DNA of 32,000 nt, from positions 1,183,228 through 1,215,227 of the forward strand of contig NZ_CP117982.1 in assembly GCF_030708075.1 (NCBI RefSeq). The letters are read 5' to 3'. The notes under the pieces are model-generated. The model made no database searches, had not been told where the DNA came from, and worked only from the letters and a program-made list of their open reading frames with translations. Origin of the DNA: Candidatus Epulonipiscium viviparus. GTDB lineage: Bacteria > Bacillota > Clostridia > Lachnospirales > Cellulosilyticaceae. The position numbers were made by a program, and so were the translations under genes. Of this stretch, positions 3,947 through 31,271 are shown piece by piece. The first letter of the stretch is position 1. Every line of letters starts with the position of its first letter.

Positions 3947-5170
3947 CTACTTTTTCTTTCCAGGCTGACTTCTTTCTTTTCGCTCTTTAGGAGCTGCTGG
4001 TTTTTCTGGTTTTTCTATTTTTGTTTTTACTCCTTCTTCAGCGATTTCTGCTTTTTTAGCAGTTGATTTTTCTTGTATCGCTTTTGTTGACGACTTTTTT
4101 TGACCCTGATTTGGTTTTTTCTTTTTATTACTTCTCTTCGCAGCTAAAGCAGCTCGCTCGGCCTTTCTTTCAGCCTCTAACCGCGCTTCCAACTCTGCCT
4201 CTTCTTTTTTAACAATCTTTGCAACAAAAACCTGTTGTCCCATCATGATCAAATTACCAGCAATCCAATAAAGAGCCAAACCATAAGGTACAGTATATGA
4301 GATAGAACCCATCATAATAGGCATAATGATATTCATAGTTTTCATCATACCTTCAGCTTGATTTGGTTGCCCATTCGCATTTTTATTTGCAGCTGGTTGA
4401 GATTGAGACATAGAAATCTTTGAGAAAATAAACGTTGATGCACCAGCAAGTAAAGGAATAATAAATGCAAAATAATTTCCTGATGCTACAATTTGACTAG
4501 GTGAATCCACAAGGTTAAAAATAAAATATTCATAATCTATTTTTTGATTTATCAACGCCGCTATTGTATCATTAAGTTCTGGTATTTTTTCGAGTAATAC
4601 ATTCCAATGCTGAGTCGTAAAATTAGCAATGGTATCACCTAAATTTGCAGCGCCCTCCATTTTATCTAGTTCTAACTGAGCCGTTGCACTTAAGGGAAGT
4701 TGTTGGATAACTTCTGCAATAACCGTAGCTGAATTGTTAATTGTACTTTCAATTGCTGCAGCAAGTTGTTGATATAATTCATACAGCTTGGTAATGTGCT
4801 TACTTGGAGCTCTAAGTACAGCATACAATGCATAAATCAATGGCAATTGAATTAATAAAGGCAAACAACCTGCCCACGGATTTATGTTGTATTTTTTATA
4901 TAAAGCCTGCATTTCTTGAGATTGAGCCAATTGCGACTGTTGATCTTTACGACCGGCATATTTTTGTTGAATCTTTTGCATTTCTGGTTGAATTTTACTC
5001 ATGCCTCTTGTAGTTCTTTGTTGTTTAATTTGTAGAGGAGTAAGTAGTAACCTAGTAAAAAACGTAAATAAAATAATAGCAATACCAAGAGTCCCCACTG
5101 GCGTTAAGACAGCAACAAAGTTAAAAATTATGTTAAAAATCTCTCCAAAAAAATTACTTATAAAATCCAT
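3947..5170 (-). CDS. yidC: Membrane protein insertase YidC/OxaA family, with a long Lys/Glu-rich C-terminal tail
   Basis: A 407 aa multi-TM protein in the conserved rnpA-yidD-yidC position. It has YidC-like TM segments (PLLIQLPLIYALY, YWIAGNLIMMGQQ) and a basic tail of about 90 aa. Confidence 0.85.
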   Translation of the reverse strand: MDFISNFFGEIFNIIFNFVAVLTPVGTLGIAIILFTFFTRLLLTPLQIKQQRTTRGMSKIQPEMQKIQQKYAGRKDQQSQLAQSQEMQALYKKYNINPWAGCLPLLIQLPLIYALYAVLRAPSKHITKLYELYQQLAAAIESTINNSATVIAEVIQQLPLSATAQLELDKMEGAANLGDTIANFTTQHWNVLLEKIPELNDTIAALINQKIDYEYFIFNLVDSPSQIVASGNYFAFIIPLLAGASTFIFSKISMSQSQPAANKNANGQPNQAEGMMKTMNIIMPIMMGSISYTVPYGLALYWIAGNLIMMGQQVFVAKIVKKEEAELEARLEAERKAERAALAAKRSNKKKKPNQGQKKSSTKAIQEKSTAKKAEIAEEGVKTKIEKPEKPAAPKERKERSQPGKKK

Positions 5171-5179
5171 CGTCTCCTC

Positions 5180-5401
5180 CTATTTCTTTTTCTCTGGTAC
5201 TGGATCAAATCCACCTTTACAAAATGGGTTACATCGTAAGATTCTAAATGTTCCAAGTAATCCTCCCTTAAAAAACCCATGTATTTGTATTGCCTCATAA
5301 GTATAGCTAGAACAAGTAGGATAAAATCTACATCTAGGACCTAAGTGTGGCGAAATACATTTTTGATAAAATCTAATTAAAAATAAAGCAAGTTTTTTCA
5401 T
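5180..5401 (-). CDS. yidD: Membrane protein insertion efficiency factor YidD
   Basis: A 73 aa ORF with the conserved [10 protein letters not shown] and RCNPF motifs. It overlaps the rnpA stop by 4 nt. Confidence 0.9.
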
Positions 5402-5733
5402 AACAGCCCCTGTCTTTTTAAAAGCTTATAAAGAGAATTTTTAATTTCATAAAAATTTTTAGTTGAAGAGGCCTCTCTTGCAATAATTACAATATCAAAA
5501 CCAACTAAAACTAAATTTTCTTCATTCAGTCTAAAATTTTCTCGTATTAAACGAGTTACACGACTTCTTGTTACACTATTACCTACTTTTTTACTAACTG
5601 AAATACCAAGCCTATTACATTGCACATTGTTTTTAAATTTATATAATACAAGTTCTTTGTTAGCATAAGATTTTCCCTTAGCATATACTTTTTTAAACTC
5701 AGTATTTTTTCTTAATTTTTCTGTCGTTTTCAT
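5398..5733 (-). CDS. rnpA: Ribonuclease P protein component
   Basis: A basic protein of about 111 aa ([17 protein letters not shown]...) immediately downstream of rpmH. I moved the start to the ATG at 5733, which is preceded by AGGAG. The track ORF start at 5763 lies inside a hairpin. Confidence 0.88.
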
Positions 5734-5776
5734 TGTGCTCCTATATGAAACAAGACCGCACAAAGCGGTCTCATTT

Positions 5777-5911
5777 TTACGCTGATAATTTTTTTCTACC
5801 TTTTGCTCTTCTTCTTGCTAATACAGCACGTCCCGACGTAGTTCTCATTCTTTTTCTAAAACCATGTTCTCTACTACGTTGACGTTTTTTAGGTTGAAAT
5901 GTCATTTTCAT
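5777..5911 (-). CDS. rpmH: 50S ribosomal protein L34
   Basis: This gene is not in the ORF track because it is under 60 aa. My translation is [44 protein letters not shown], which is canonical L34. It is followed by the hairpin GACCGC-TTTGT-GCGGTC. Confidence 0.92.
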
Positions 5912-6275
5912 ATAAAAATTTAAGGCAACCGCCCTAGATTATTGTTTCTAGGAAGATCTACCTTTTCCTCCTTTCACAAATCAATCAATATGCAAAAAAT
6001 AATACACACTCATTGAGTATAAGCAATACATTTCAATAAGTCAAGTATATTTTCTCAAAAAATCTTTTATGTAAACAGAAATTTTGCCATAAAATGTCAA
6101 ATCATTTTATATTTTGCAAATATTTTATTAAAACTAGTAAATATTTTTTATAAAACATTTTAATTTTATCAGTTCTGCCAATCAATAAATTTGTTTAAAC
6201 AATCCACAAATTGGCAATACTTTTATACGTTAGTGAATAACTTTATAATAGTAAATTTTAGAAAGGAGGAACCAA

Positions 6276-7613
6276 TTGAGTTTTAATGAAAAATGGAACT
6301 CGATACTTAAATTAGTAGAAATAGAAACATCATCTGTAAGCTTTAATACCTGGTTTAAACAAACAAAGTTATCTAATATTTCTGACGATACATTAACAAT
6401 AACCGTAAAAGATGATTTATCCAAAAGTATACTAAGCACCAGATATTTTGATCTTATTCGAACAAGTGCTGTAACTGTTTTAGATAAAAAATATAATCTT
6501 GAATTTATTATAAAAGAATCCAATCCACTATCAATAACTAAAATTGCCACCAATCGCATCGCTATCCAAGATCCACTTAATGCACCCTCTAATTTAAATC
6601 CAAAATATACCTTTAACTCATTTGTAGTTGGAAATAGTAATAGAATGGCTCATGCAGCAACAATGGCTGTTGCAAAAATGCCTGCTAAATCTTATAATCC
6701 ATTATTTCTCTATGGAGGGGTTGGACTGGGTAAAACACATCTTATGCAATCAATAGCACACTTTACACTTAAGCATCATCCAAACTTAAAAGTACTATAT
6801 ACTTCTACAGAAAAATTTACTAATGAATTAATAAATTCAATTCGCGATGACCAAAATAATGCCTTCAGAAATAAATATAGAAATATAGATATATTACTAA
6901 TAGATGATATTCAATTTATCGCCGGAAAAGAAAGAACACAAGAAGAATTTTTCCATACATTTAACACTCTTTATGAAGCCAATAAGCAAATTATCATATC
7001 TAGTGATCGTACACCAAAAGAAATAGAGTTTTTAGAATCTAGACTTCGCTCTAGATTTGAATGGGGATTAATAGCCGATTTACAACCCCCAGATTTAGAA
7101 ACTCGCATAGCAATACTAAAAAAAAAAGCAGAAATGGAAAATATCACAATTGATTCGAATGTATTGCAATTTATAGCGGAAACCATTATTTCTAATATAA
7201 GAGAACTAGAAGGAGCTCTAAATCGAATTATAGCATTTTCATCATTGTCAAACGAAACTATAAATTTAGAACTTACTGAAGAAGCCTTAAAAGATACTAT
7301 ATTATCAAAAGAATCTATTTCCATAATCACTCCTTCCTATATTCAAAGTATTGTAGCCATGACCTATAATATTACTATTTCTGAACTTTTATCAAGTAAA
7401 CGAGTAAGAACTATATCACGACCAAGGCAAATAGCAATGTATCTATGTAGAAAATTAACCAATTTGTCCCTCACAAAAATCGCTGAACAATTTGGAGGTA
7501 GAGATCACACCACCATTTTACATGGTTATGATAAAATAGCCAAAGAACTAGTTGAAGATGAACAACTCGCTTACTCCATCACCCAACTTGAACTCAAAAT
7601 TCTTCATTCATAA
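6276..7613 (+). CDS. dnaA: Chromosomal replication initiator protein DnaA
   Basis: A 445 aa ORF with Walker A GGVGLGKTHL, Walker B LLIDDIQF and a C-terminal DnaA-box binding domain (RPRQIAMYLCRKLT...GGRDHTTILHG). The start is TTG, preceded by AGGAGGA. Confidence 0.95.
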   Translation: MSFNEKWNSILKLVEIETSSVSFNTWFKQTKLSNISDDTLTITVKDDLSKSILSTRYFDLIRTSAVTVLDKKYNLEFIIKESNPLSITKIATNRIAIQDPLNAPSNLNPKYTFNSFVVGNSNRMAHAATMAVAKMPAKSYNPLFLYGGVGLGKTHLMQSIAHFTLKHHPNLKVLYTSTEKFTNELINSIRDDQNNAFRNKYRNIDILLIDDIQFIAGKERTQEEFFHTFNTLYEANKQIIISSDRTPKEIEFLESRLRSRFEWGLIADLQPPDLETRIAILKKKAEMENITIDSNVLQFIAETIISNIRELEGALNRIIAFSSLSNETINLELTEEALKDTILSKESISIITPSYIQSIVAMTYNITISELLSSKRVRTISRPRQIAMYLCRKLTNLSLTKIAEQFGGRDHTTILHGYDKIAKELVEDEQLAYSITQLELKILHS

Positions 7614-12778: not shown

Positions 12779-15394
12779 ATGAAAAATACAGAATTTGATA
12801 AAATTATTCCTGTTGATATTAAGGACGAAATGAAAAACTGTTATATCGATTATGCTATGAGCGTAATTGTTGCACGCGCATTACCAGATGTTAGGGATGG
12901 CTTAAAGCCAGTTCATAGACGAATTTTATATGCTATGGATGAACTTAATTTATCTCCTGATAAACAATATAGAAAATCGGCACGTATAGTAGGCGATACG
13001 ATGGGTAAATACCATCCTCACGGAGATGCGTCCATATACGACGCCATGGTTAGATTGGCACAGAATTTTAATACTAGATATCCTCTAGTAGATGGACACG
13101 GAAATTTTGGTAATGTAGATGGTGATTCAGCTGCAGCAATGCGTTATACAGAGGCTAGAATGAGCAAGCTAACAATGTATATGCTAAGTGATATAGACAA
13201 AGAAACAGTTGATTTTAGACCTAATTTTGATGAATCTATAGAAGAACCTACTGTATTGCCAGCTAGATATCCTAACTTACTAGTAAATGGATCATCTGGG
13301 ATAGCTGTAGGAATGGCAACCAATATTCCTCCTCACAATATGGGAGAAGTTATAGATGCTGTCATTAAAATAATTGACAACTATACTGGTGATAACGAGA
13401 CTAATGAGAAAAAAGAAACTGAAATCGAAGACTTAATGGAGATTGTAGTAGGACCAGATTTTCCAACGGGAGGACAAATATTAGGGAGATATGGTATAGA
13501 ACAAGCATATAGAACCGGTAAAGGCAAAGTAAAAATTCGAGCCAAGACTGAAATTGAAGAAATGTCAGCGGGTAAGACTGCAATCATCATTACAGAAATC
13601 CCTTATCAAGTAAATAAATCAAAGTTAATAGAGAAAATTGCCGAATTAGTCAAATTAAAAAAAGTTGATGGAATAACTGGAATAAGAGATGAATCAGATA
13701 GAGACGGTATGAGGATTGTAATTGAATTAAGGCGTGATGTAAATGCTAATATAATCTTAAATCAATTATATAAATTTAGCCAACTTCAAGATACATTTAG
13801 TATCAACATGCTTGCTTTAATTAATGGTGAACCTCACGTATTTAACTTAAAAGAAATGTTAGAAGCTTATCTGGATCATCAAAAACAAGTTATTACAAGA
13901 CGAACAGAGTTTGAATTGGATAAGGCTCAAGCTAGAGCTCACATCATAGAAGGCTTTTTAATTGTTTTAGGTGCAGATAAAATAGATTTAGTTATAAATT
14001 TAATTAGAAATTCTAAAACAGTTGCTGAGGCAAAAGAGAAGTTGATGGAAAAAATTGGATTATCAGAAATTCAAGCACAAGCAATTATGGATATGAGACT
14101 GAGAGTATTAACGGGGTTAGAACATGACAAATTAACCCAGGAATTTAACGAGCTAAGGGATAAAATTGCTTATCTTAAATCATTGCTAGAACATGAAGAT
14201 CAATTACTAAAAGTGATTAAAGAAGAGTTAATCGTCGTTCGTGAAAAATTTACTGATCCTAGAAGGTCGGAGCTTAGTTTATTAGATGATGAAATTGATA
14301 TCGAAGACTTGATAGATGAAGAAGAGGTAGTCGTAACAATCACTCATTTTGGTTATATAAAAAGAATTCCTTTAGTTACCTACAAAGAACAAAAAAGAGG
14401 TGGTAGAGGTGTTATAGGGGTTAACACGATAGAAGAAGATTTTATAGAAAAATTATTTACAACTAGCAATTTAGATTTTATAATGTTTTTTACTAATAAA
14501 GGTCGTGCTTATAAAATTAAAGCGTATAAAATTCCTGAAGCTAGTAGAACTGCAAGAGGGCTTGCTATTGTAAATTTACTGCATCTAAATGTTGATGAAA
14601 AAATTAGTGCGGTATTTCCTGTAAAACAAAATGAGCATGAACGCTATCTTACAATGATAACCAAAAAGGGTTTAATTAAAAAAACCAACATCACTGCTTT
14701 TAATAATATCAAAAAAGGTGGAATAATTGCTCTTACCATGCAAGATGCTGACGAATTAGTAGGCGTATATGAAACAACCGATCAAGATAAAATTATCATT
14801 GCAACTAAAAAAGGTTTAGGTATAATGTTTGAGGGTAAGAATATTAGACCAACTGGTAGAACAGCAAAAGGTGTTAGAGCCATTAATCTTTCAAAAGAGG
14901 ACTATGTAATTAGTGCGACTATTCCAAAAGAGGGTGAACAAATTCTTATTGCAACTAAAAATGGAATAGGCAAAAGAACCAGGATCGATGAGTTTAAATC
15001 TCAAAGAAGAGGCGGAAAAGGCCTTATTATTTACAAAGTGGATGACAAAACAGGTGATGTAGTTGCTATTACTTCTGTTTCAGATTCAAATGGACTTTTG
15101 ATGATAACATCCGAAGGCGTGATTATAAGAATTAAAGTAAGTCAGATTTCAAGCTTAGGTAGATACGCTAAAGGGGTCAAGTTAATTAACTTAACCGATG
15201 GCATACACGTAGTATGTATGGAAAAAGTAGCCGAATTTATAGAAGAACCAGAAGAATTAGAAGAATTAGAGGAATTGGAGGAATTACAAGAAGAAGTCAT
15301 CGAAAAATTACCAAATGAAATTTTAGATAATATAACAAATGAGTTAATAGAAGCTGAAATAGTAGTTGAAGTTTTAGAACCTCCAAAGGAGTAA
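12779..15394 (+). CDS. gyrA: DNA gyrase subunit A, with an acidic C-terminal tail
   Basis: An 871 aa ORF with the QRDR region ([20 protein letters not shown]), the active-site AAMRYTE motif, beta-pinwheel repeats and an [15 protein letters not shown] tail. Confidence 0.96.
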
Positions 15395-24633: not shown

Positions 24634-25407
24634 TTAGTTAATATCGATAATTTGTTTAGCGCTAGATGATACGGCCTTAGAAATTGTAGGCGCAAGATAT
24701 CGGTCAATATTGTCCATCGCCTGGCTGGTAATCTGATTAATATTATTGCTAAGACTGGTAATATCATTACTCATCGTTTTTATAAATTGGTCCGCATTAT
24801 CGATGATGCCAATAAGTTGCTTCTCAACAGAATTTTCCAAAATCTCACGAGCACGGCTGCCATCTGGAAAGCGCGCCTCCAAGTCGGCTAACCTACAAAC
24901 AGCAGATTCATAGGCTTCGTTTTGTAAGTTTAGATACGCCTTAGTCCTCTCTTCGGCTAGCCTATGTGCATGGTCCATCAACGCAATAGACATCTGCCCA
25001 ATGCTATCTGCTAGTATCACAGACGCTTCTCCCAAATCATGCTGATATTTCTTTAGTGCCTCGATAGATTGCGCTTGATACTTAAGCTCGTTCTGAGAAA
25101 TAAGTTCAGTTAGCTCTAAATTAAATCGACGCATATTCACATCTTGCTCATCCTGTCGCGAATGCATTTCTATGTCAAAAGCAATCTGATTTTCTCTAAT
25201 CTGTTCTTCCTTATTTTTCTTTACCATATCAAGCTCAGCCTGCATGGAATTAATATGATGCTGCAACTCCAGCATAGAGCGGTCATGTTTCGCATTGCGT
25301 TCGCGTAGAGGCTGGCGCAGTACGTCACAAATTAGGTTTACAGGAACAAAAATAATATCATCCAATTTATCAAACATTCCAAATATACGTGATATATTTA
25401 CTTTCAT
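24634..25407 (-). CDS. Hypothetical all-helical/coiled-coil protein (257 aa), last gene of the GTPase operon
   Basis: The ORF has an ATGA start/stop overlap with the upstream gene. The sequence is rich in Q/E/L/N heptad-like stretches (ELQHHINSMQAELDMVKKNKEEQIRENQ; NDITSLSNNINQITSQAMDNI). I saw no TM segment, signal peptide or recognisable catalytic motif. Confidence 0.7.
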   Translation of the reverse strand: MKVNISRIFGMFDKLDDIIFVPVNLICDVLRQPLRERNAKHDRSMLELQHHINSMQAELDMVKKNKEEQIRENQIAFDIEMHSRQDEQDVNMRRFNLELTELISQNELKYQAQSIEALKKYQHDLGEASVILADSIGQMSIALMDHAHRLAEERTKAYLNLQNEAYESAVCRLADLEARFPDGSRAREILENSVEKQLIGIIDNADQFIKTMSNDITSLSNNINQITSQAMDNIDRYLAPTISKAVSSSAKQIIDIN

Positions 25408-25865
25408 AAGATCTCCTCTTTCTGTGTTAATTTTTTGAGCTCTCGATCTAAAATTTTATTTTCTTTAATCAGTTTAATTTGTAGTTTTTTTAAATTAGTT
25501 TCCCATTCTTCGTTTTGATTAATAAGAGTACGAAGTGCTTGAAGTTGCTCTTCCACAAAGTTTAGACTCATAGAAGAATCTCTCCAGCTATTGGCAAAGC
25601 GATGGAGATGCTCCGCAAATAGTGTAGTAAATTTTGGTCGATCTTCAGAAGAAAATTTTTTTAGTTGCAGCAAAAACTCATCGTAATGACTCTTAAGCCA
25701 CTCCAATTCATAAACTTTTGTTCTAATATAATATATTTCACTTTCCAAATCACTATATAAGGCAGAGTAAATGTTGGGGTTCGAATTTAACACACCCTCA
25801 ATAAACTCCTGGCGGCATTGGCTGGTGATCTCTAAAGCCGATAAATAGTATTTATCATCGATCAT
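25404..25865 (-). CDS. Hypothetical helical protein (153 aa), GTPase operon
   Basis: The ORF has a strong SD (GAGGGAGGGA) 12 nt after the upstream stop. The C-terminal coiled-coil-like stretch reads LKKLQIKLIKENKILDRELKKLTQKEE. No motif is recognised. Confidence 0.7.
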   Translation of the reverse strand: MIDDKYYLSALEITSQCRQEFIEGVLNSNPNIYSALYSDLESEIYYIRTKVYELEWLKSHYDEFLLQLKKFSSEDRPKFTTLFAEHLHRFANSWRDSSMSLNFVEEQLQALRTLINQNEEWETNLKKLQIKLIKENKILDRELKKLTQKEEIL

Positions 25866-25877
25866 AAATCCCTCCCT

Positions 25878-26255
25878 CTATACAATGCTTTTTAGTGTGT
25901 TTTGCACTAGTCGTTTAAATTCATCTAGCTTTTTTATTGAGTAATCATTAAGTAGAGTTTCTGTCAGTGCAAAGCTACGTTCAATATTATTTGCAAATCT
26001 ATTCATAAACACTTTTTTCATTTCTTGATCAATTGCTTCGGCGTCCAATTTTGCACTCACATTTGGAAGAATTTTACTAAAAAAATCTATTTGCTCTTGT
26101 CGAAATTCTTTCAATTTTCTATCTATAAAATCTATTTCAGGAGAATGCTTTTTTAGCAGCTCCAAATAATGCTTCTCATATTCATATAGTAATTGAAGCG
26201 AGGTGTTTTCGCTTGCGAGTGAATCATTAGTGCCGAATTTATCAAATGCTTTCAT
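25878..26255 (-). CDS. Hypothetical helical protein (125 aa), GTPase operon
   Basis: The ORF has an SD (AAGAAAGAGG), and the composition predicts an all-alpha protein. No motif is recognised. Confidence 0.65.
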   Translation of the reverse strand: MKAFDKFGTNDSLASENTSLQLLYEYEKHYLELLKKHSPEIDFIDRKLKEFRQEQIDFFSKILPNVSAKLDAEAIDQEMKKVFMNRFANNIERSFALTETLLNDYSIKKLDEFKRLVQNTLKSIV

Positions 26256-26275: not shown

Positions 26276-26659
26276 TTATCTCTTTTGTATTATCTCTTTG
26301 TGTATTTTATTTAAATGTATTTTGGCTGTTTCCTCTCCGTTAACAAGTATTTGCGCATAGTTTATATCGATATTAAATGCTTGATTTATTAATATCGCAT
26401 TTGCAATAGCAGTCCGAAGCTCTATCAAAAAATGTTTGCTCTGAGTCTGGAAAATTAAATTTTGCTTGTCTTTAGATGTATATAAAGGCAGAACCAACTT
26501 AAGTTTTAAAATTTTGTGATAGAGATCTAAATCAACAGTAACATTGAAATTACAGTTGCTATTACACTTCCTAAGCCAGCCACGATTAATACTGGCCGCA
26601 ATATATTTTCGGAAACCGATAATGGTTTTTTTTTTGCATCTCCAATAATTCTGTTTCAA
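26276..26659 (-). CDS. Frame-shifted 3' segment, most likely the C-terminal part of the gene starting at 27419
   Basis: The 127-codon ORF has no ATG anywhere; the track start is a TTG with no SD. It overlaps the upstream ORF by 74 nt, and the overlap contains an A10 tract (26626..26635). Removing one A fuses the two frames. Confidence 0.5.
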   Translation of the reverse strand: MKQNYWRCKKKTIIGFRKYIAASINRGWLRKCNSNCNFNVTVDLDLYHKILKLKLVLPLYTSKDKQNLIFQTQSKHFLIELRTAIANAILINQAFNIDINYAQILVNGEETAKIHLNKIHKEIIQKR

Positions 26660-27419
26660 TACGGGCAGGGGGAGCTACAGTTGTTATCGTTGGTTCCAAA
26701 GGTTCCGAAATTTCCGAGACTGGTGGCTCTTTTAACCTGCTAAGTATATTGCTAGAAGTAGAGATGATATAATTTGTATCCTGATCATAGAGCTGCTCAA
26801 TGCGTTTAGCACTGGTAATATCCGTGCAAAGCGTAAAATTAGCATCTTCAGACAAGCTAAAGTATCGTATTAATTCTGCATTACAGTCTGATGCGTATAA
26901 AGCAGTATTATGAAATGTATGGGTGGGGACAGGATAGTTTTTCGTTGTTGCCGTTGCTTCAAAGTCTAACGAGCCAAAGGGTACTTCGATAGTGCTGTTG
27001 GTGTTTGTTTCCCATACAGCGGTTAAATATTTAATATATATTTCTAACAGAAATTCATTCGTAATTTTTTCGAAATCGAAAGCGGAGCTTTTGTGGATCA
27101 CTATGCCAATAAAGGCATAAATTCGTCTGTTTTTTTCGTCTTTCAAAAATTTGGCAGCAGAATCTGTAATAAATTGATTGCAGTTCTGTGCAAGGTTCGC
27201 AATATAATCAGCTGCCCCAATGATTTTATACTCACCATCAGGACTGCTGCTAATTAACCATCTTCTTTCCGATAACGTTTCTATAGAACTTGTCGCAAGT
27301 AAAATGTTTCGTCTGGCCCATTGGATCTCAGCAGTGTTCCAGTTCGCAGGACGTACCATAAAATTAGGGTTGAAGTCACACTTAAAAGTTCTGCTATGGA
27401 TAAGATATGCTATTTCCAA
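26586..27419 (-). CDS. Hypothetical protein, second gene of the GTPase operon (5' segment if the gene is split at the A10 tract)
   Basis: I favour the TTG start at 27419, which lies 7 nt after GAGGGGGA and 19 nt after the GTPase stop. The alternative ATG at 27482 would overlap the GTPase gene by 44 nt. There is no recognisable motif. The protein is probably mixed alpha/beta, with a Pro/Glu-rich linker (KEPPVSEISEPLEPTITTVAPPA) just before the frame junction. Confidence 0.6.
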   Translation of the reverse strand: MEIAYLIHSRTFKCDFNPNFMVRPANWNTAEIQWARRNILLATSSIETLSERRWLISSSPDGEYKIIGAADYIANLAQNCNQFITDSAAKFLKDEKNRRIYAFIGIVIHKSSAFDFEKITNEFLLEIYIKYLTAVWETNTNSTIEVPFGSLDFEATATTKNYPVPTHTFHNTALYASDCNAELIRYFSLSEDANFTLCTDITSAKRIEQLYDQDTNYIISTSSNILSRLKEPPVSEISEPLEPTITTVAPPARIETELLEMQKKNHYRFPKIYCGQY

Positions 27420-27438: not shown

Positions 27439-28542
27439 TTATAATAAAAGCTGAAATTCGGTAAATGATTTTTCGATACCATTTATAAATAGCGGTAAAT
27501 TGGCATTCAGTTCTTCTAGAAGCGTTTGCTGATTTAAATGTAAAGACTGTATTTGCTGGTCCGTTTCGGTTATAGCTTTATCTATTGTAAATATTTCGTG
27601 ATTAACTTGATTGATATTTTTTGAAGCTGACGTTAATGCATTTTTCATTTCGTGGATTTTATTATTTTTATGAAGCGCTAAGAAAGAATTTTCTAATTTA
27701 TTTTTTTGCGCAGTATATTGTAAACGAAGATCATTCCATTTATCAAGCTCAAGCAAAAGTTTGGCTTTTGCTTCTTGGTTTTTATTTTGATACGCAGTTA
27801 GCTCCTTGAGTTTCCTAGTCAAAGCACAATATATTCCCATAAAGATCGGAAGATGCATATTTAGCAGTTGTGGAGCATCTTTTTCGTCTTCGAGATTAAG
27901 TCCAATTGATATAGGAATTATAGAAACGATGCTGGGTGGTGCAGTGTTTAAAAATAACGGTGTATATGCCGCCTTAACTATATTAAATAATTCTGCCGTA
28001 GAAATTGTTCCCGCGCATTTATCAAATTTGGTAATCACAAGGGCGATCGGTGGTAATGTCTGGTTTCCTTTTTGAAACTTAGAAATAAAATTGTTAATAG
28101 TTTTAGAATCATTTTTGATGTTGCGTATTTTTTGATCTTGAGTATCAGCGATTAAAGTATCGCCATCAATGCAAATAAATAAACAGCTAGAACTATTTAA
28201 AGACTCGATAAAATTGCTATACTCCAAACTGTCTCCAGAATTTTTGGTTTCTAAAATTCCTCCAGCATAATCAAGCCAATCAAAAGATAATATATTTTTA
28301 TAGCCATATTGAAAATCAAATTTAAAGTTAGAGCTGCTATCTGTTCCAGGAGGAAACCGATCGGGTCCCAACGAAAAATCAAGCATCCTATTATATCTTT
28401 TGCGAAGCTCAACGTCATCGTCATCGTCTGCAAGTATAGTGTAACCTTCAAATCCGGAACACATCTCATAATACATTCCAAGCAAGTAACACGTTTTGCC
28501 TGCACCTGTCATTCCTAAAATCGTAAATTTTGTATCTGCCAT
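27439..28542 (-). CDS. P-loop GTPase (TRAFAC-type motifs) with a C-terminal coiled-coil domain, first gene of the operon
   Basis: In this 367 aa ORF, G1 is G10-MTGAGKT-17 and the G3 candidate is hydrophobic-D91-YAG94. G4 is T171-KFD-174 ([NT]KxD, implying guanine specificity), and a switch-I Thr candidate lies in PPGTDSS. Residues about 240-345 are heptad-rich (KELTAYQNKNQEAKAKLLLELDKWNDLRLQYTAQKNKLEN...). AAGGAG lies 7 nt upstream of the ATG. Confidence 0.8.
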   Translation of the reverse strand: MADTKFTILGMTGAGKTCYLLGMYYEMCSGFEGYTILADDDDDVELRKRYNRMLDFSLGPDRFPPGTDSSSNFKFDFQYGYKNILSFDWLDYAGGILETKNSGDSLEYSNFIESLNSSSCLFICIDGDTLIADTQDQKIRNIKNDSKTINNFISKFQKGNQTLPPIALVITKFDKCAGTISTAELFNIVKAAYTPLFLNTAPPSIVSIIPISIGLNLEDEKDAPQLLNMHLPIFMGIYCALTRKLKELTAYQNKNQEAKAKLLLELDKWNDLRLQYTAQKNKLENSFLALHKNNKIHEMKNALTSASKNINQVNHEIFTIDKAITETDQQIQSLHLNQQTLLEELNANLPLFINGIEKSFTEFQLLL

Positions 28543-28574: not shown

Positions 28575-28603
28575 ATTTTAATGGCAAAGTATAAAATAGT
28601 CAA
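28575..28603 (-). promoter_or_regulatory. Sigma-A-type promoter of the GTPase operon
   Basis: On the minus strand, the -35 TTGACT is at 28603..28598, then a 17-bp spacer, then the -10 TAAAAT at 28580..28575. The -10 lies about 33 nt upstream of the ATG. Confidence 0.55.
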
Positions 28604-28799: not shown

Positions 28800-31271
28800 A
28801 TGAAAAAAAGACTAACACTAGGATTAATGATGACAACACTGATGCTTGGTATTACAGGTTGTGCAAACGAAAACAATGTAGTTCAATCAAGTGCCAATGT
28901 CGATAATATAACAAAAGTGGAAAAGCCAAAACCTACAGTAAAAACAGGATCAAAAACTACTATAAAAGAAGAAATAGGGGCTAGTGAGGAGGAGCAAGGG
29001 ACTGAAATTGCAATTATACATACCAATGATATTCACTGCGCTATAGAAAAAAATATGGGTTATGCAGGTGTTTCTGCATTTAAAAATGAAATGAATACAT
29101 TGTATGGAGAAGAAAATGTAGTTCTTGTTGACGCTGGAGACGCTATACAAGGTGGCCCAATAGGAAAGCTCACTCAAGGAGAAGCTATAGTAAATATAAT
29201 GAATGAAGTAGGATACGATGTCTTTGTTCTTGGTAACCATGAATTCGACTATCAAATTCCACGCCTACTAGAACTAATGGATAAGATGGAAGCTGCGGTC
29301 ATTTCAAGTAACTTTATAGATATTGAAAAAGACATGCCCGTCTTTAAAGCCTATACAATGACAACCCATGGAGACACTAATATAGCCTACGTGGGTGCCA
29401 CAACTCCAGAAACTTTTACCAAATCAACTCCCGCATATTTTCAAAATGAAAAAGGTGAGTATATATACGACCTAAGCGAAGGTAAAAATGGCCAAGAATT
29501 ATATGATAGAGTTCAAAGTGCTGTAGACGAAGCTATTAAAGCAGGGGCCGATTATATTGTTGCACTTGTTCATCTTGGCATCGATAAAGGAAGCGCGCCT
29601 TGGCGATCTACAGACTTAATCACTAATACAACCGGAATTGATATTGTTATTGACGGGCACTCACACTCTGTTATATATGGAGAAACCGTGAAAAACGCAA
29701 TAGGTGAAGAGGTAATTTTAACTCAAGCCGGAACCAAGTTTGATGCCATAGGAAAAATTATAATCGACACAGCCACAGATGAAATAGAAGCCACGGTGAT
29801 TCCGAACTACGACAAAAAAGATGAACGTATTCAAAATTTTATTGCTGGAATAAACGAAGAGTTCGATGAGCTTTTAAATCAAGTAGTGGCAACTTCAAGC
29901 GTACATCTCGCAACCATCGATCCCAAAACCAAAATGAGAATTATAAGAAATAACGAAACTAACTTAGGTGACCTCGTAACAGATGCCTATAGAAGTATTC
30001 TCGAAACTGATATAGCTTTGGTAAATGCTGGTGGAATCAGAGCCGATATTGAAGCCGGAGAAATCACAAATGAAGAAATAATCAATGTCCATCCTTGGGG
30101 CAATGCTGCAGTAGAAGTAGAAGTAACTGGCCAAACAATTCTAGATGCACTAGAAATGGGAGCAAAGAATATGCCTGATGAAAGTGGCGGATTTCTGCAC
30201 GTATCTGGATTAACATATTCCATCGATACCACTATTCCATCAGCAGTGACAGTAAACGATAAAGGAGAATTTTTATCTGTCGATGGCGCGTATCGAGTAA
30301 AAGATGTTTTTATCGGAGGAGAGCCCCTCAATCTAAACAAGTTATATTCTGTGGCATCGCATAATTACATGTTGCTATTATATGGAGATGGCATGACTAT
30401 GTTCAAGGATGCCAACGTGATTCGAGAAGATGTTATGGTCGATAACGAGGTGTTGATCAACTATATAACAAATAATTTAGGAGGAAATATCGTTGATGAA
30501 TATAGCGAAATCTATGGCGAAGGGCGCATCAAAATAATAACAGAAGCCAATAAAAATGATCAGTCAATAAATAAAACTGCGGATGTCATAGCTCTTGAAT
30601 CAGCGAATATCGAATCTCCGGAATTAGTAATACTTACAGATGAAGTGACCAATATCGCTGCGCTTGAATTATTGGAAGAAGATGGTGCGCTAGCCGAAGA
30701 AGCTGAAGATTTCGTTGCGCTTGAATCAGCGAATATCGAATCTCCGGAATTAGTAATACTTACAGATGAAGTGGCCGATGTCGTTGCGCTTGAATTATTG
30801 GAAGAAGATGGTGCGCTAGCCGAAGAATCTGCCAATGTCGTTGCGCTTGAATCAGCGGAAATCGAAGTTCTTACAACAGAAGAATTAGTACTACTTACAG
30901 ATGAAGTGGCACCGGTAGCCGAAGAAGCTGCCAATGTTGTTGCGCTTGAATCAGCGAATATCGAATCTCCGGAATTAGTAATACTTACAGATGAAGTGAC
31001 CAATATCGCTGCGCTTGAATTATTGGAAGAAGATGGTGCGCTAGCCGAAGAAGCTGAAGATTTCGTTGCGCTTGAATCAGCGAATATCGAATCTCCGGAA
31101 TTAGTAATACTTACAGATGAAGTGGCCGATGTCGTTGCGCTTGAATTATTGGAAGAAGATGGTGCGCTAGCCGAAGAATCTGCCAATGTCGTTGCGCTTG
31201 AATCAGCGGAAATCGAAGTTCCGGTTACAACAGAAGAATTAGTACTACTACAGATGAAGTGGCACCGGTAG
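28800..31271 (+). CDS. Lipoprotein bifunctional metallophosphatase/5'-nucleotidase with an acidic C-terminal tandem-repeat region (reading frame as called)
   Basis: The signal peptide has a lipobox (LMLGITG-C). Calcineurin-like motifs are IHTNDIHC, GDAIQGG, GNHEFD and DGHSH. The 5'-nucleotidase C-terminal domain is marked by NETNLGDLVTDA and NAGGIRADI. From about residue 595 the protein consists of acidic repeats. The ORF ends through a 1-nt frame break, not a natural-looking terminus. Confidence 0.85.
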   Translation: MKKRLTLGLMMTTLMLGITGCANENNVVQSSANVDNITKVEKPKPTVKTGSKTTIKEEIGASEEEQGTEIAIIHTNDIHCAIEKNMGYAGVSAFKNEMNTLYGEENVVLVDAGDAIQGGPIGKLTQGEAIVNIMNEVGYDVFVLGNHEFDYQIPRLLELMDKMEAAVISSNFIDIEKDMPVFKAYTMTTHGDTNIAYVGATTPETFTKSTPAYFQNEKGEYIYDLSEGKNGQELYDRVQSAVDEAIKAGADYIVALVHLGIDKGSAPWRSTDLITNTTGIDIVIDGHSHSVIYGETVKNAIGEEVILTQAGTKFDAIGKIIIDTATDEIEATVIPNYDKKDERIQNFIAGINEEFDELLNQVVATSSVHLATIDPKTKMRIIRNNETNLGDLVTDAYRSILETDIALVNAGGIRADIEAGEITNEEIINVHPWGNAAVEVEVTGQTILDALEMGAKNMPDESGGFLHVSGLTYSIDTTIPSAVTVNDKGEFLSVDGAYRVKDVFIGGEPLNLNKLYSVASHNYMLLLYGDGMTMFKDANVIREDVMVDNEVLINYITNNLGGNIVDEYSEIYGEGRIKIITEANKNDQSINKTADVIALESANIESPELVILTDEVTNIAALELLEEDGALAEEAEDFVALESANIESPELVILTDEVADVVALELLEEDGALAEESANVVALESAEIEVLTTEELVLLTDEVAPVAEEAANVVALESANIESPELVILTDEVTNIAALELLEEDGALAEEAEDFVALESANIESPELVILTDEVADVVALELLEEDGALAEESANVVALESAEIEVPVTTEELVLLQMKWHR

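What the first reader, a model, noticed from the sequence alone, without database searches (positions are those of the whole stretch)
27439..28542. GTPase with readable G1/G3/G4 motifs, an Asp5 insertion and a ~110-aa coiled-coil C-terminus
Visible in the translation: GMTGAGKT (G1), WLDYAGG (DxxG, G3) and ITKFD ([NT]KxD, G4). The motif spacing is typical of Ras-like/TRAFAC G domains, so GTP rather than ATP specificity is expected. Between G1 and the candidate switch I lies an unusual acidic run (ADDDDDVE). After about residue 235 the sequence becomes heptad-like to the end. A G domain plus helical tail recalls the septin/GIMAP/IRG/GBP-type immune and scaffolding GTPases. Similarity to those families is my inference only.
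Basis: partly seen in the sequence, partly recalled or inferred. Interest (0 to 1): 0.6.

Follow-up and report, generated by a model that had tools for sequence, protein, structure and literature searches.

The report
Divergent double-GTPase-type switch operon
The gene encodes a real GTP-binding switch protein with a long helical stalk; it belongs to a little-known, untested bacterial family thought to control defence or stress responses at the membrane, and it sits in a conserved six-gene operon whose second gene carries an unusual run of A's that apparently lets the cell make two versions of the switch's partner protein.

Summary
The ORF is real but lies on the minus strand (27439-28542, 367 aa). 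G1, G2, G3, G4 and G5 are all present and invariant across 46 relatives. A confident AlphaFold model shows a TRAFAC G domain plus a heptad-patterned helical hairpin.

The only sequence family matched is Pfam DO-GTPase2, at threshold here and in 45 of 46 relatives. No septin, GIMAP, IRG, GBP, dynamin or Ras model matches. The family lacks the Walker-B Glu that defines DO-GTPases (D-Y-P/A-G-G instead).

The next gene downstream is always a tail-anchored protein. Its N-domain folds like longin/TagF/DENN regulators, and its nearest named clusters are all GAP1. Four further unannotated genes (a small orf3 and three helical proteins) complete the operon in 21 loci.

Relatives carry N-terminal SIR2, CHAT, PTS EIIA/EIIB/HPr or ACP domains. 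Distribution is patchy: 4 of 60 related genomes.

Best reading: a new variant of the predicted DO-GTPase/GAP1 membrane switch systems, function untested.

In passing: the partner gene holds a conserved A9-A11 tract after which two frames stay open (membrane anchor, or orf3 domain).

This scan earlier reported a DO-GTPase branch with a TagF/longin-like partner on other DNA (e1-1233043).

The parts
28575..28603 (-). promoter-like site TTGACT-17-TAAAAT upstream of the GTPase start
   Evidence: Consensus scan, (10 of 12). The number of such sites in the region is not above shuffles, so this is weak evidence.
27439..28542 (-). GTPase gene, 367 aa (P0001): G domain res 1-230, helical hairpin 231-348, conserved C-terminal beta element 351-358
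   Evidence: ORF and translation. Pfam DO-GTPase2 27.1 bits against cut-off 27. 194 and 805 relatives. AF2 pLDDT 91.7. Fold matches.
28492..28515 (-). G1 / P-loop GMTGAGKT (res 10-17), followed by invariant C18 and L20
   Evidence: Invariant columns.
28408..28431 (-). acidic run ADDDDDVE (res 38-45), N-cap of helix 40-54
   Evidence: Sequence. Partial conservation (D41 42/46, D43 37/46). Helix placement.
28339..28359 (-). G2 / switch I candidate R62-F-P-P-G-T67-D68
   Evidence: R62 45/46, F63 and P64 46/46, T67 44/46, D68 44/46.
28258..28278 (-). G3 / Walker B WLDYAGG (res 89-95), with Gly rather than Glu or Gln after DxxG
   Evidence: D91, Y92 and G94 invariant. Position 95 is G in 39/46 and E in 1/46. 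Canonical DO-GTPases read D-x-S-G-E.
28021..28035 (-). G4 ITKFD (res 170-174)
   Evidence: T171 45/46, K172 and D174 46/46.
27901..27915 (-). G5-like P210-I-S212-I-G214
   Evidence: P210 46/46, S212 42/46, G214 44/46. It follows strand 205-210.
27499..27852 (-). helical hairpin stalk (res 231-348)
   Evidence: AF2 helices 231-284 and 289-348. Heptad a/d occupancy 0.73-0.78. Length varies 73-134 residues in relatives.
26586..27419 (-). orf2, the GAP1-like partner (277 aa as it stands, TTG start at 27419): longin/TagF-like N-domain res 1-235, then a linker
   Evidence: Found directly downstream of the GTPase in nearly every locus where downstream DNA is held. AF2 pLDDT 88 (about 95 for the N-domain). 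Longin/roadblock Z up to 8.0. TagF Foldseek E 5.8e-4. Nearest named ESM Atlas clusters are all GAP1-N1/N2/M.
26626..26635 (-). A10 homopolymer on the coding strand, at the linker/anchor junction of orf2
   Evidence: A homologous A9-A11 tract is present in 21 loci; only 6 other A/T runs of 9 or more occur in 255 kb.
26527..26634 (-). membrane-anchor reading frame (KKKPLSVSENILRPVLIVAGLGSVIATVISMLLLI*), out of frame with orf2 in this assembly; it would join orf2 in an mRNA or DNA carrying one more A
   Evidence: The same-genus relative L041 has the anchor in frame.
26276..26659 (-). orf3 frame (open through the A tract; would join orf2 with one A fewer), encoding the small conserved orf3 domain
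   Evidence: The frame is open 61-200 codons from the tract in all 21 loci, against 4.3% of background positions reaching 62 codons.
25878..26255 (-). orf4, 125-aa helical protein, no known family
   Evidence: Conserved in 22 loci. No Pfam, NCBIfam, PHROGs, PADLOC or PDB match.
25404..25865 (-). orf5, 153-aa helical protein, no known family
24634..25407 (-). orf6, 257-aa helical protein, no known family; overlaps the orf5 stop (ATGA)
   Evidence: ESM Atlas finds only unnamed clusters and a phasin-like helical shape. hhalign against GASH is negative.

Best explanation
The gene encodes the switch subunit of a divergent branch of the DO-GTPase/GAP1 'GTPase-centric' systems.

Shown:
- It is a TRAFAC GTPase with all five G motifs and a helical hairpin stalk.
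- It is always followed by a gene for a protein with a longin/TagF-like, GAP1-like N-domain that normally ends in a C-terminal transmembrane anchor.
- In this sub-branch a small orf3 and three unrelated helical proteins follow.

Inferred mechanism:
- The GTPase binds GTP. It has Gly in place of a catalytic Gln or Glu after DxxG, so it probably hydrolyses only when G domains pair (with itself, or with the paralogue present in some loci) and/or when the partner supplies a residue. R10 of orf2 is invariant. R62 in switch I is near-invariant.
- The partner, tethered to the inner face of the membrane, recruits the GTPase and sets its nucleotide state, as longin and roadblock proteins do for Rag, Rab and MglA.
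- The stalk and the three helical proteins form the output assembly at the membrane.
- Input comes through N-terminal modules in relatives (PTS EIIA/EIIB/HPr, ACP) or, here, through an unknown cue.
- An A9-A11 tract lets the partner be made either with the anchor or with the orf3 domain.

The biological role is most likely a conflict or stress response (anti-phage or abortive). This is prediction only.
For: Family:
- Pfam DO-GTPase2 is the only family hit for P0001 (27.1 bits). It matches 45/46 relatives, best E 2.9e-12.
- Shared idiosyncratic motifs with a canonical locus: GKT-x-YL, hhhIDG-x-L, (T/S)K(Y/W)D.

Fold:
- pLDDT 91.7.
- Z 15-16 to Arl2, Rag and Rab; Z 14.0 to MFN2; Z 13.8 to YcjX.

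Partner:
- orf2 is adjacent in almost all loci, including distant Bacteroidota ones.
- The top fold hits are almost all longin, roadblock or DENN GTPase regulators, and TagF and NPRL2.
- All ten named ESM Atlas neighbours are GAP1-N1/N2/M, with structure TM 0.53-0.59 over 178-198 residues.
- A C-terminal TM anchor is present in most homologues.

Paired GTPases occur in L010, L011, L021, L022, L025 and L028.

Conflict flavour:
- Relatives are fused to SIR2_2 and CHAT.
- Cyanobacterial loci are flanked by vWA, Ser/Thr kinases and TPR-CHAT.
- Distribution is patchy: 4 of 60 relatives searched.
- Flanks differ in every genome.

Two partner isoforms.
Against: - The Glu after Walker-B DxxG that defines DO-GTPases is absent: G in 39/46, E in 1/46.
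- The Pfam score is only at threshold.
- hhalign of the family profile against single canonical DO-GTPase1/2 sequences gives only short local matches, probability about 12%.
- orf2 has no Pfam GAP1 hit in any of 32 members, and hhalign against one canonical GAP1 is negative. The GAP1 link therefore rests on language-model and predicted-structure similarity alone.
- The longin match is Z 8.0, at the edge of what unrelated models reach.
- No recognisable effector enzyme is in this operon. PADLOC, PHROGs and NCBIfam give nothing. The flanks I scanned by Pfam in four loci (L005, L010, L017, L027) were mostly housekeeping or transport genes, with no defence island or mobile-element genes.
- The family was not found in phages.
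- No DO-GTPase system has an experimental function in the papers I could search.
- PTS and ACP fusions fit metabolic sensing at least as well as immunity.
Confidence: 0.5

Rival explanations
1. It is a nutrient-responsive membrane or cytoskeletal module with no role in conflict. In this reading, a mini mitofusin/BDLP-like GTPase and its membrane-tethered regulator organise helical scaffold proteins at the membrane of large cells, and sugar or lipid status gates the process.
For: - Mitofusin-1/2 and BDLP are the best whole-length fold matches: Foldseek E 5.6e-5, and MFN2 Z 14.0 over 276 residues.
[quoted passage not shown] Both EIIA His motifs and the EIIB Cys motif are visible in L019.
- Hosts are large or filamentous bacteria: Epulopiscium kin, Quinella/Selenomonadaceae and filamentous cyanobacteria.
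- Flanks are housekeeping genes.
- There is no toxic effector domain in this operon.
- orf6 has a phasin-like helical shape.
Against: - TM-scores to mitofusin are only 0.35-0.40.
- No dynamin-family sequence model matches.
- The operon is found in only 4 of 60 relatives and 1 of 3 other genomes of the genus. A core cell-biology function would be expected to be kept.
- SIR2 and CHAT fusions, and vWA/kinase neighbours, occur in the same family.
- Kaur et al. interpret an association with multicellular or large bacteria as a mark of conflict systems (PMC7159879).
Confidence: 0.3
2. One reading: it is a member or close analogue of the septin/GIMAP/IRG/GBP group of oligomerising immune or scaffolding GTPases.
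For: - It is a G domain followed by a helical extension.
- The D-x-P/A-G signature without a catalytic Gln is shared with septin, GIMAP and dynamin-type GTPases (established knowledge of these families).
- GIMAP7 appears in the Foldseek list (rank 11, E 2.2e-4, TM 0.30-0.37).
Against: - No Pfam septin, AIG1, IIGP or GBP hit is seen in 46 members.
- A profile search of PDB sequences finds no GTPase at all.
- Small GTPases score higher than GIMAP in the exhaustive fold comparison.
- The conserved partner is longin/GAP1-like, which none of those families uses.
Confidence: 0.05
3. It is a housekeeping ribosome-associated GTPase, suggested by its position directly upstream of rplM-rpsI.
Against: - The adjacency is not conserved in any other locus.
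- Distribution is patchy.
- There is no match to Era, Der, Obg or EngB-type models.
- rplM has its own perfect TTGACA-18-TATAAT promoter.
Confidence: 0.02

Closest known systems
DO-GTPase / GAP1 'GTPase-centric' conflict systems (Kaur, Burroughs, Iyer, Aravind 2020, eLife, PMC7159879; Pfam PF19993, PF19975, PF20012-14, PF19994)
   Same: - It is the only sequence family matched.
- Both are TRAFAC GTPases with GKT-x-YL, IDG-x-L and (T/S)K(Y/W)D motifs.
- The GTPase is sometimes doubled.
- A conserved partner gene lies directly downstream and often ends in a TM segment.
- All-helical accessory proteins are present.
- Variable N-terminal or neighbouring effector-type domains (SIR2, CHAT, vWA, kinase) occur in relatives.
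- Distribution is patchy and leans towards large or multicellular bacteria.
   Different: - There is no Glu after DxxG.
- There are no zinc ribbons.
- The GTPase has a C-terminal helical hairpin.
- The partner is a single ~235-aa domain plus anchor, not the three-domain GAP1 of 650 aa or more, and is invisible to the Pfam GAP1 models.
- There is no GASH, FNIII, GAAD or calcineurin-type effector, although all of these are present in the canonical locus L044.
- The accessory proteins orf3-6 are unrelated to anything described.
- This family is common in cyanobacteria, where the paper found DO-GTPase systems nearly absent.
- The partner gene has an A-tract recoding site.
Mitofusin / BDLP (dynamin superfamily) minimal G-domain plus helical-bundle constructs (PDB 5GOF, 6JFK, 2J69)
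   Same: The overall shape is shared: a G domain with a helical hairpin that leaves and returns to it. Both have DxxG without a catalytic Gln. The context is membrane-linked.
   Different: TM-scores are only 0.27-0.40. No dynamin-family sequence signature is present. The protein is much smaller. It has no paddle or TM of its own; membrane attachment would come from the partner.
Small GTPases with longin/roadblock regulators: Rag-GATOR1 (NPRL2)/FLCN-FNIP/Ragulator, Rab-TRAPP/Mon1-Ccz1/DENN, MglA-MglB; and T6SS TagF (DENN-like)
   Same: - The G domain scores best against Arl2, Rag and Rab (Z 15-16).
- The partner's fold matches are almost exclusively longin, roadblock or DENN regulators and TagF.
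- The regulator is membrane-tethered.
- Paralogous GTPase pairs in some loci recall the RagA/C heterodimers.
   Different: Similarity is at fold level only (Z up to 8.0, identity about 10%). There is no roadblock dimerisation domain on the GTPase. No regulatory activity has been shown. Any evolutionary link is untested.
Programmed recoding at A-rich tracts (dnaX tau/gamma by -1 frameshift at A-AAA-AAG in E. coli and by transcriptional slippage at an A tract in Thermus; IS-element transposases) - from my own knowledge, not checked in papers here
   Same: A conserved homopolymer sits at a domain boundary. Two downstream frames are both kept open and both encode conserved protein, giving two C-terminal variants of one protein.
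   Different: The system and proteins are different. Three outcomes are possible here (short tail, anchor, orf3 domain). The mechanism is undetermined: DNA phase variation, RNA polymerase slippage or ribosomal frameshift.

Membership tests
DO-GTPase (Pfam PF19993/PF19975; PMC7159879) | Sequence match to the family model at or above the curated cut-off | tested here: met
   P0001 scores 27.1 bits against cut-off 27, which is marginal. 45 of 46 relatives match DO-GTPase2 at E <= 0.01, best 2.9e-12, and 11 match DO-GTPase1.
DO-GTPase (Pfam PF19993/PF19975; PMC7159879) | TRAFAC-class GTPase fold with Walker A/B and NKxD-type specificity motif | tested here: met
   G1-G5 are invariant. AF2 model pLDDT 91.7. 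Z 12-16 to many GTPases.
DO-GTPase (Pfam PF19993/PF19975; PMC7159879) | Conserved glutamate in the Walker B motif (D-x-x-G-E) | tested here: not met
   The canonical pair in L044 reads DFSGE / DLSGE. This family reads DY[PA]GG, with position 95 G in 39/46 and E in 1/46.
DO-GTPase (Pfam PF19993/PF19975; PMC7159879) | GAP1 protein (GAP1-N, -M, -C) encoded downstream | tested here: inconclusive
   A conserved partner is always downstream. All its named ESM Atlas neighbours are GAP1-N1/N2/M. However, no Pfam GAP1 hit occurs in 32 members, hhalign against one canonical GAP1 is negative, and the partner is about 235 aa plus an anchor, not three domains.
DO-GTPase (Pfam PF19993/PF19975; PMC7159879) | Two paralogous GTPase genes (seen in 38% of systems) and N-terminal zinc ribbons or TM (60% / 13%) | tested here: not met
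   The window and its genome hold a single copy. The N-terminus starts 6 residues before beta1. Pairs do exist in L010, L011, L021, L022, L025 and L028.
DO-GTPase (Pfam PF19993/PF19975; PMC7159879) | Third component GASH (helical) or FNIII repeats | tested here: not met
   orf4-6 have no Pfam hit. hhalign of orf6 against the GASH protein of L044 gives probability 0.1%. They are helical, so an analogous role is possible.
Septin / GIMAP (AIG1) / IRG / GBP | Match to the family sequence models | tested here: not met
   None of 46 members hits these Pfam families at E <= 0.01.
Septin / GIMAP (AIG1) / IRG / GBP | Closest fold among GTPases | tested here: inconclusive
   GIMAP7 is listed by Foldseek at E 2.2e-4, TM 0.30-0.37. 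It is not among the top 50 of the exhaustive comparison, where small GTPases and MFN2 lead.
Dynamin superfamily (mitofusin/BDLP) | Large G domain with dynamin signature, plus helical bundle(s) built from N- and C-terminal helices | tested here: inconclusive
   MFN1 and MFN2 are the best full-length matches (E 5.6e-5; Z 14.0, rmsd 5.0, 276 aligned), but TM is only 0.35-0.40 and no Dynamin_N Pfam hit is seen.
Ras-superfamily small GTPases | Catalytic Gln after DxxG and a compact ~170-aa G domain | tested here: not met
   Gly follows DxxG. The G domain is about 230 aa with inserts at 30-62 and 127-158. No Ras, Arf or Roc Pfam hit is seen. The fold similarity is nonetheless the highest (Z 15-16).
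Longin / roadblock / DENN-TagF regulators (for the partner orf2) | Longin-type alpha-beta-alpha sandwich at the N-terminus | tested here: inconclusive
   Top VIA-align hits are a Loki Roadblock-Longin protein (Z 8.0, 132 aligned), TRAPP, FNIP2, VAMP7 and Lst4. Foldseek finds TagF at E 5.8e-4, then NPRL2 and DENND1. Z 8 is at the noise ceiling the tool states.

The most novel reading that the evidence does not exclude
The GTPase and its partner are a bacterial counterpart of the eukaryotic/Asgard pairing of a small GTPase with a longin regulator (Rag-GATOR1/FLCN type). In this reading:
- The regulator is membrane-tethered.
- The GTPase works as a dimer.
- In Selenomonadaceae the module reads sugar status directly through fused PTS EIIA/EIIB/HPr domains.
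- A conserved A9-A11 recoding site in the regulator gene sets the ratio of membrane-anchored to orf3-tailed regulator, which would be a previously undescribed way of tuning a GTPase switch.
Probability: 0.15. Interest if true: 0.8.

Novelty: new variant of a known kind. Interest (0 to 1): 0.6.

Why it matters
DO-GTPase systems are a large predicted class of bacterial conflict or stress switches. No experimental function was found for them in the searchable literature.

This branch offers a compact version that should be tractable: a 367-aa GTPase, a 235-aa regulator domain and three small helical proteins.

It gives a structural hypothesis for what GAP1-type partners are, namely longin/TagF-like GTPase regulators. 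That links bacterial systems to the regulator logic of eukaryotic Rag, Rab and Arf GTPases.

The PTS, HPr and ACP fusions point to a concrete input that can be tested.

The conserved A tract with two open downstream frames is a candidate new case of programmed recoding. It is supported by natural controls: loci that lack the tract encode the two forms as separate genes.

Five of the six proteins have no family in Pfam, NCBIfam, PHROGs or PADLOC.

Tried and rejected
- **PADLOC, NCBIfam, PHROGs:** nothing for any of the six proteins.
- **Profile searches of PDB sequences:** no GTPase for A1, and only coiled-coil noise for orf4-6.
- **hhalign of family profiles against single canonical DO-GTPase1/2, GAP1 and GASH sequences:** weak or negative. 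I could not build canonical-family profiles, because only one canonical locus turned up in 300 Bacillota genomes.
- **hhalign among orf4, orf5 and orf6:** unrelated to one another.
- **'Longer' search for fused forms of orf2:** none. This is weak evidence.
- **Phage collection:** no match. Plasmids: only 3 cyanobacterial records.
- **Metagenome scan for tract-length polymorphism near the L012/L016 tract:** the pattern was too loose and returned only chance matches. DNA-level phase variation therefore remains untested.
- **Ribosome-linked reading:** rejected because the rplM adjacency is unique to this genome.
Full report
**Observation**

The ORF at 27439-28542 is open only on the minus strand and encodes 367 aa (P0001).

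A search of 5.8 billion clustered proteins gave 194 relatives. An exhaustive HMMER scan of 1.84 billion representatives gave 805 at E <= 1e-3 and 106 at E <= 1e-30.

In an alignment of 46 relatives (33-59% identity, A1), these residues are invariant or nearly so:
- G1: G10, G13, G15, K16, T17
- switch I: R62, F63, P64, T67, D68
- G3: D91, Y92, G94
- G4: T171, K172, D174
- G5-like: P210, S212, G214

So this is a selected, intact G domain, not a chance pattern.

The Asp run (38-45) is a partly conserved acidic cap (consensus T-D-D-D-T-D-V) of a helix within a family-wide insert. It is not an insertion peculiar to this protein.

**Structure**

AlphaFold2 with A1 gives pLDDT 91.7 and pTM 0.88. The model has three parts:
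- a Ras-like core, with each G motif after the expected strand;
- two long antiparallel helices (231-284, 289-348);
- a short conserved beta element that returns towards the G domain.

Heptad a/d positions are 73-78% hydrophobic. Stalk length varies from 73 to 134 residues in relatives, and reaches 644-aa proteins in L022.

The exhaustive fold comparison ranks Arl2, Rag and Rab first (Z 15-16, about 175 residues aligned). Mitofusin-2 follows at Z 14.0 over 276 residues and YcjX at Z 13.8. Foldseek leads with mitofusin-1, EngA, GIMAP7 and BDLP at TM 0.27-0.40. The profile finds no GTPase among PDB sequences.

**Family**

The only Pfam hit is DO-GTPase2, at threshold (27.1 against 27). Across A1, 45/46 members hit DO-GTPase2 (best E 2.9e-12) and 11 hit DO-GTPase1. 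No septin, AIG1, IIGP, GBP, dynamin or Ras model is hit.

DO-GTPases were defined by Kaur et al. 2020 (PMC7159879). They are TRAFAC GTPases with a conserved Walker-B Glu. They are often doubled, often carry zinc ribbons, and are followed by GAP1 plus GASH or FNIII proteins and variable effectors.

I fetched one canonical locus for comparison (G220, L044). It reads Metallophos-GAAD, GASH, DO-GTPase2, DO-GTPase1, GAP1-N1. Aligned with it, the present family shares GKT-x-YL, IDG-x-L and (T/S)K(Y/W)D, but has Gly where the canonical proteins have Glu (DFSGE/DLSGE against DY[PA]GG).

Profile-to-single-sequence hhalign gives only short local matches. I therefore treat the family as a sister or outlying branch, not a typical member.

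**Operon**

A scan of one genome per species gave 36 loci. tblastn, ORF inspection and HMM searches show this gene order:
- the GTPase (one or two copies);
- orf2;
- a small orf3;
- orf4, orf5 and orf6.

The full set is present in Lachnospiraceae, Selenomonadaceae, a Succinimonas MAG, a 'Xenobia' MAG and others. The GTPase-orf2 pair alone is found in Epulopiscium type A, filamentous cyanobacteria, a Clostridia MAG and, distantly, in Bacteroidota.

orf4-6 are helical, unrelated to each other and match nothing known. The ESM Atlas sees only unnamed clusters and a phasin-like shape for orf6.

**The partner**

orf2 homologues share a ~235-aa N-domain, a low-complexity linker and usually a C-terminal TM anchor. 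R10, D15, G68, F103 and G105 are invariant; T11, R53, R98 and W136 are nearly so.

No Pfam family matches any of 32 members. AF2 models the N-domain at about pLDDT 95.

Its best fold matches are almost all longin, roadblock or DENN GTPase regulators: a Loki Roadblock-Longin protein (Z 8.0), TRAPP subunits, FNIP2, VAMP7, Lst4, Mon1-Ccz1 and DENND10. Foldseek finds TagF (E 5.8e-4), NPRL2 and DENND1. These scores are borderline, but the hit list is strikingly uniform.

Independently, the ESM Atlas places residues 1-235 next to clusters that carry GAP1-N1, GAP1-N2 and GAP1-M. Feature scores are 0.84-0.89 and structure TM is 0.53-0.59 over 178-198 residues; all ten named neighbours are GAP1.

So the pair looks like a minimal DO-GTPase/GAP1 pair, and GAP1-type partners may be longin/TagF-like. 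A previous report of this scan reached a similar view on a different DO-GTPase branch (e1-1233043). I tested that claim only for the present family.

**Context and distribution**

- The genome holds one copy.
- Among 60 relatives, matches occur in one partial same-genus contig, both genomes of one sister genus, and one weak hit.
- The closest proteins are from Candidatus Epulonipiscioides saccharophilum: 59% for the GTPase and 48% for orf2.
- Flanks differ in every locus, and the ones I scanned were mostly housekeeping or transport genes. The rplM-rpsI adjacency is unique to the window.
- The family was not found in phages, and in only three cyanobacterial plasmids.
- Relatives carry N-terminal domains: PTS EIIA (E down to 1e-62), EIIB, HPr, ACP, SIR2_2 and CHAT.
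- Cyanobacterial loci add vWA, Ser/Thr kinases and TPR-kinase-CHAT proteins.

SIR2, CHAT and vWA are the vocabulary of conflict systems. The PTS and ACP domains suggest metabolic input, or metabolic targets.

**A conserved A tract in orf2**

In the window, orf2 stops 16 codons after an A10 tract (26626-26635). The TM anchor lies in the frame reached by adding one A. The orf3 frame is reached by removing one A.

The tract is conserved at the same site:
- An A9-A11 tract lies at the homologous linker position in 21 loci whose flanking DNA is not conserved.
- Those 21 tracts account for 21 of the 27 A/T runs of 9 or more in 255 kb.

After the tract two frames stay open in every case:
- one encodes the anchor;
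- the other, always the anchor frame minus one, runs 61-200 codons into the conserved orf3 domain. Only 4.3% of 6081 background positions inside genes have 62 or more open codons in that frame.

The genomic frame after the tract varies between loci:
- it leads to the anchor in most loci;
- to the orf3 domain in L015 and L017;
- to neither in the window and L005.

The two loci without a tract (L010, L022) instead have two orf2 paralogues, one with an anchor and one without. The anchorless L010 copy ends ...KYRIMIWEESNE, like the Selenomonad orf3 end ...KLIYLIxEETDG.

This argues for two functional isoforms made by slippage or phase variation. A homopolymer assembly error could explain the window's own out-of-frame state.

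**Verdict**

The septin/GIMAP/IRG/GBP interpretation is not supported at family level.

The best-supported reading is a new variant of the predicted DO-GTPase/GAP1 membrane switch systems, with a coiled-coil stalk, a minimal longin-like tail-anchored partner and novel helical accessory proteins. Whether it serves defence or nutrient-linked membrane biology is open. Nothing here is experimentally tested.

Noticed in passing
window 26527-26659 (minus strand); L003:2407, L007:6238, L011:3656, L015:9758, L017:9728, L005:9811 and 14 more loci: A conserved A9-A11 tract lies in the linker of the GTPase's partner gene. After it, both the TM-anchor frame and the orf3 frame stay open. The genomic frame joins the anchor, the orf3 domain or neither, depending on the genome. 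In the window (A10) it joins neither. This is a candidate programmed slippage or phase switch; an assembly error is possible for the window itself.
   Followed up: yes
L010:9277-10275 and 13047-14057; L022:2869-4140 and 5000-6592: The two loci that lack the A tract encode two paralogues of the partner, one with a TM anchor and one without. They look like a natural 'unfused' version of the two isoforms.
   Followed up: partly
L019:6765-9116; P0091, P0118, P0058, P0081, P0121: Selenomonadaceae/Quinella homologues of the GTPase carry N-terminal PTS EIIA (sometimes two, plus EIIB), HPr or acyl-carrier (PP-binding) domains. The EIIA His motifs and the EIIB Cys motif look intact in L019.
   Followed up: partly
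L028:1-13078; L025:2274-11329; P0157, P0217, P0226, P0243: Cyanobacterial relatives form arrays of two GTPases plus a partner, repeated. They have CHAT or SIR2 fused to one GTPase, and vWA, Ser/Thr kinase and TPR-kinase-CHAT genes alongside. Kaur et al. reported DO-GTPase systems as nearly absent from cyanobacteria.
   Followed up: partly
L027:9134-10678; L018:2909-3512: In L027 the partner and orf4 are one 514-aa protein. In L018 the alternative frame after the A tract runs on into orf4 (200 codons). This suggests the partner, orf3 and orf4 act together physically.
   Followed up: no
window 28800-31271 (+): The divergent neighbour is a lipoprotein-like 5'-nucleotidase/metallophosphoesterase (Pfam 5_nucleotid_C, Metallophos) with a long acidic LE-rich repeat tail.
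   Followed up: no
window 7118-7127 (+): This is the only other 10-nt homopolymer (A10 on the plus strand) in the 32-kb window. It lies inside the 445-aa ORF at 6276-7613.
   Followed up: no
whole genome G000: The closest proteins come from Candidatus Epulonipiscioides saccharophilum (Epulopiscium type B kin), and the genome is a single 3.28-Mb contig. The host is probably a giant surgeonfish-gut bacterium or a close relative.
   Followed up: partly
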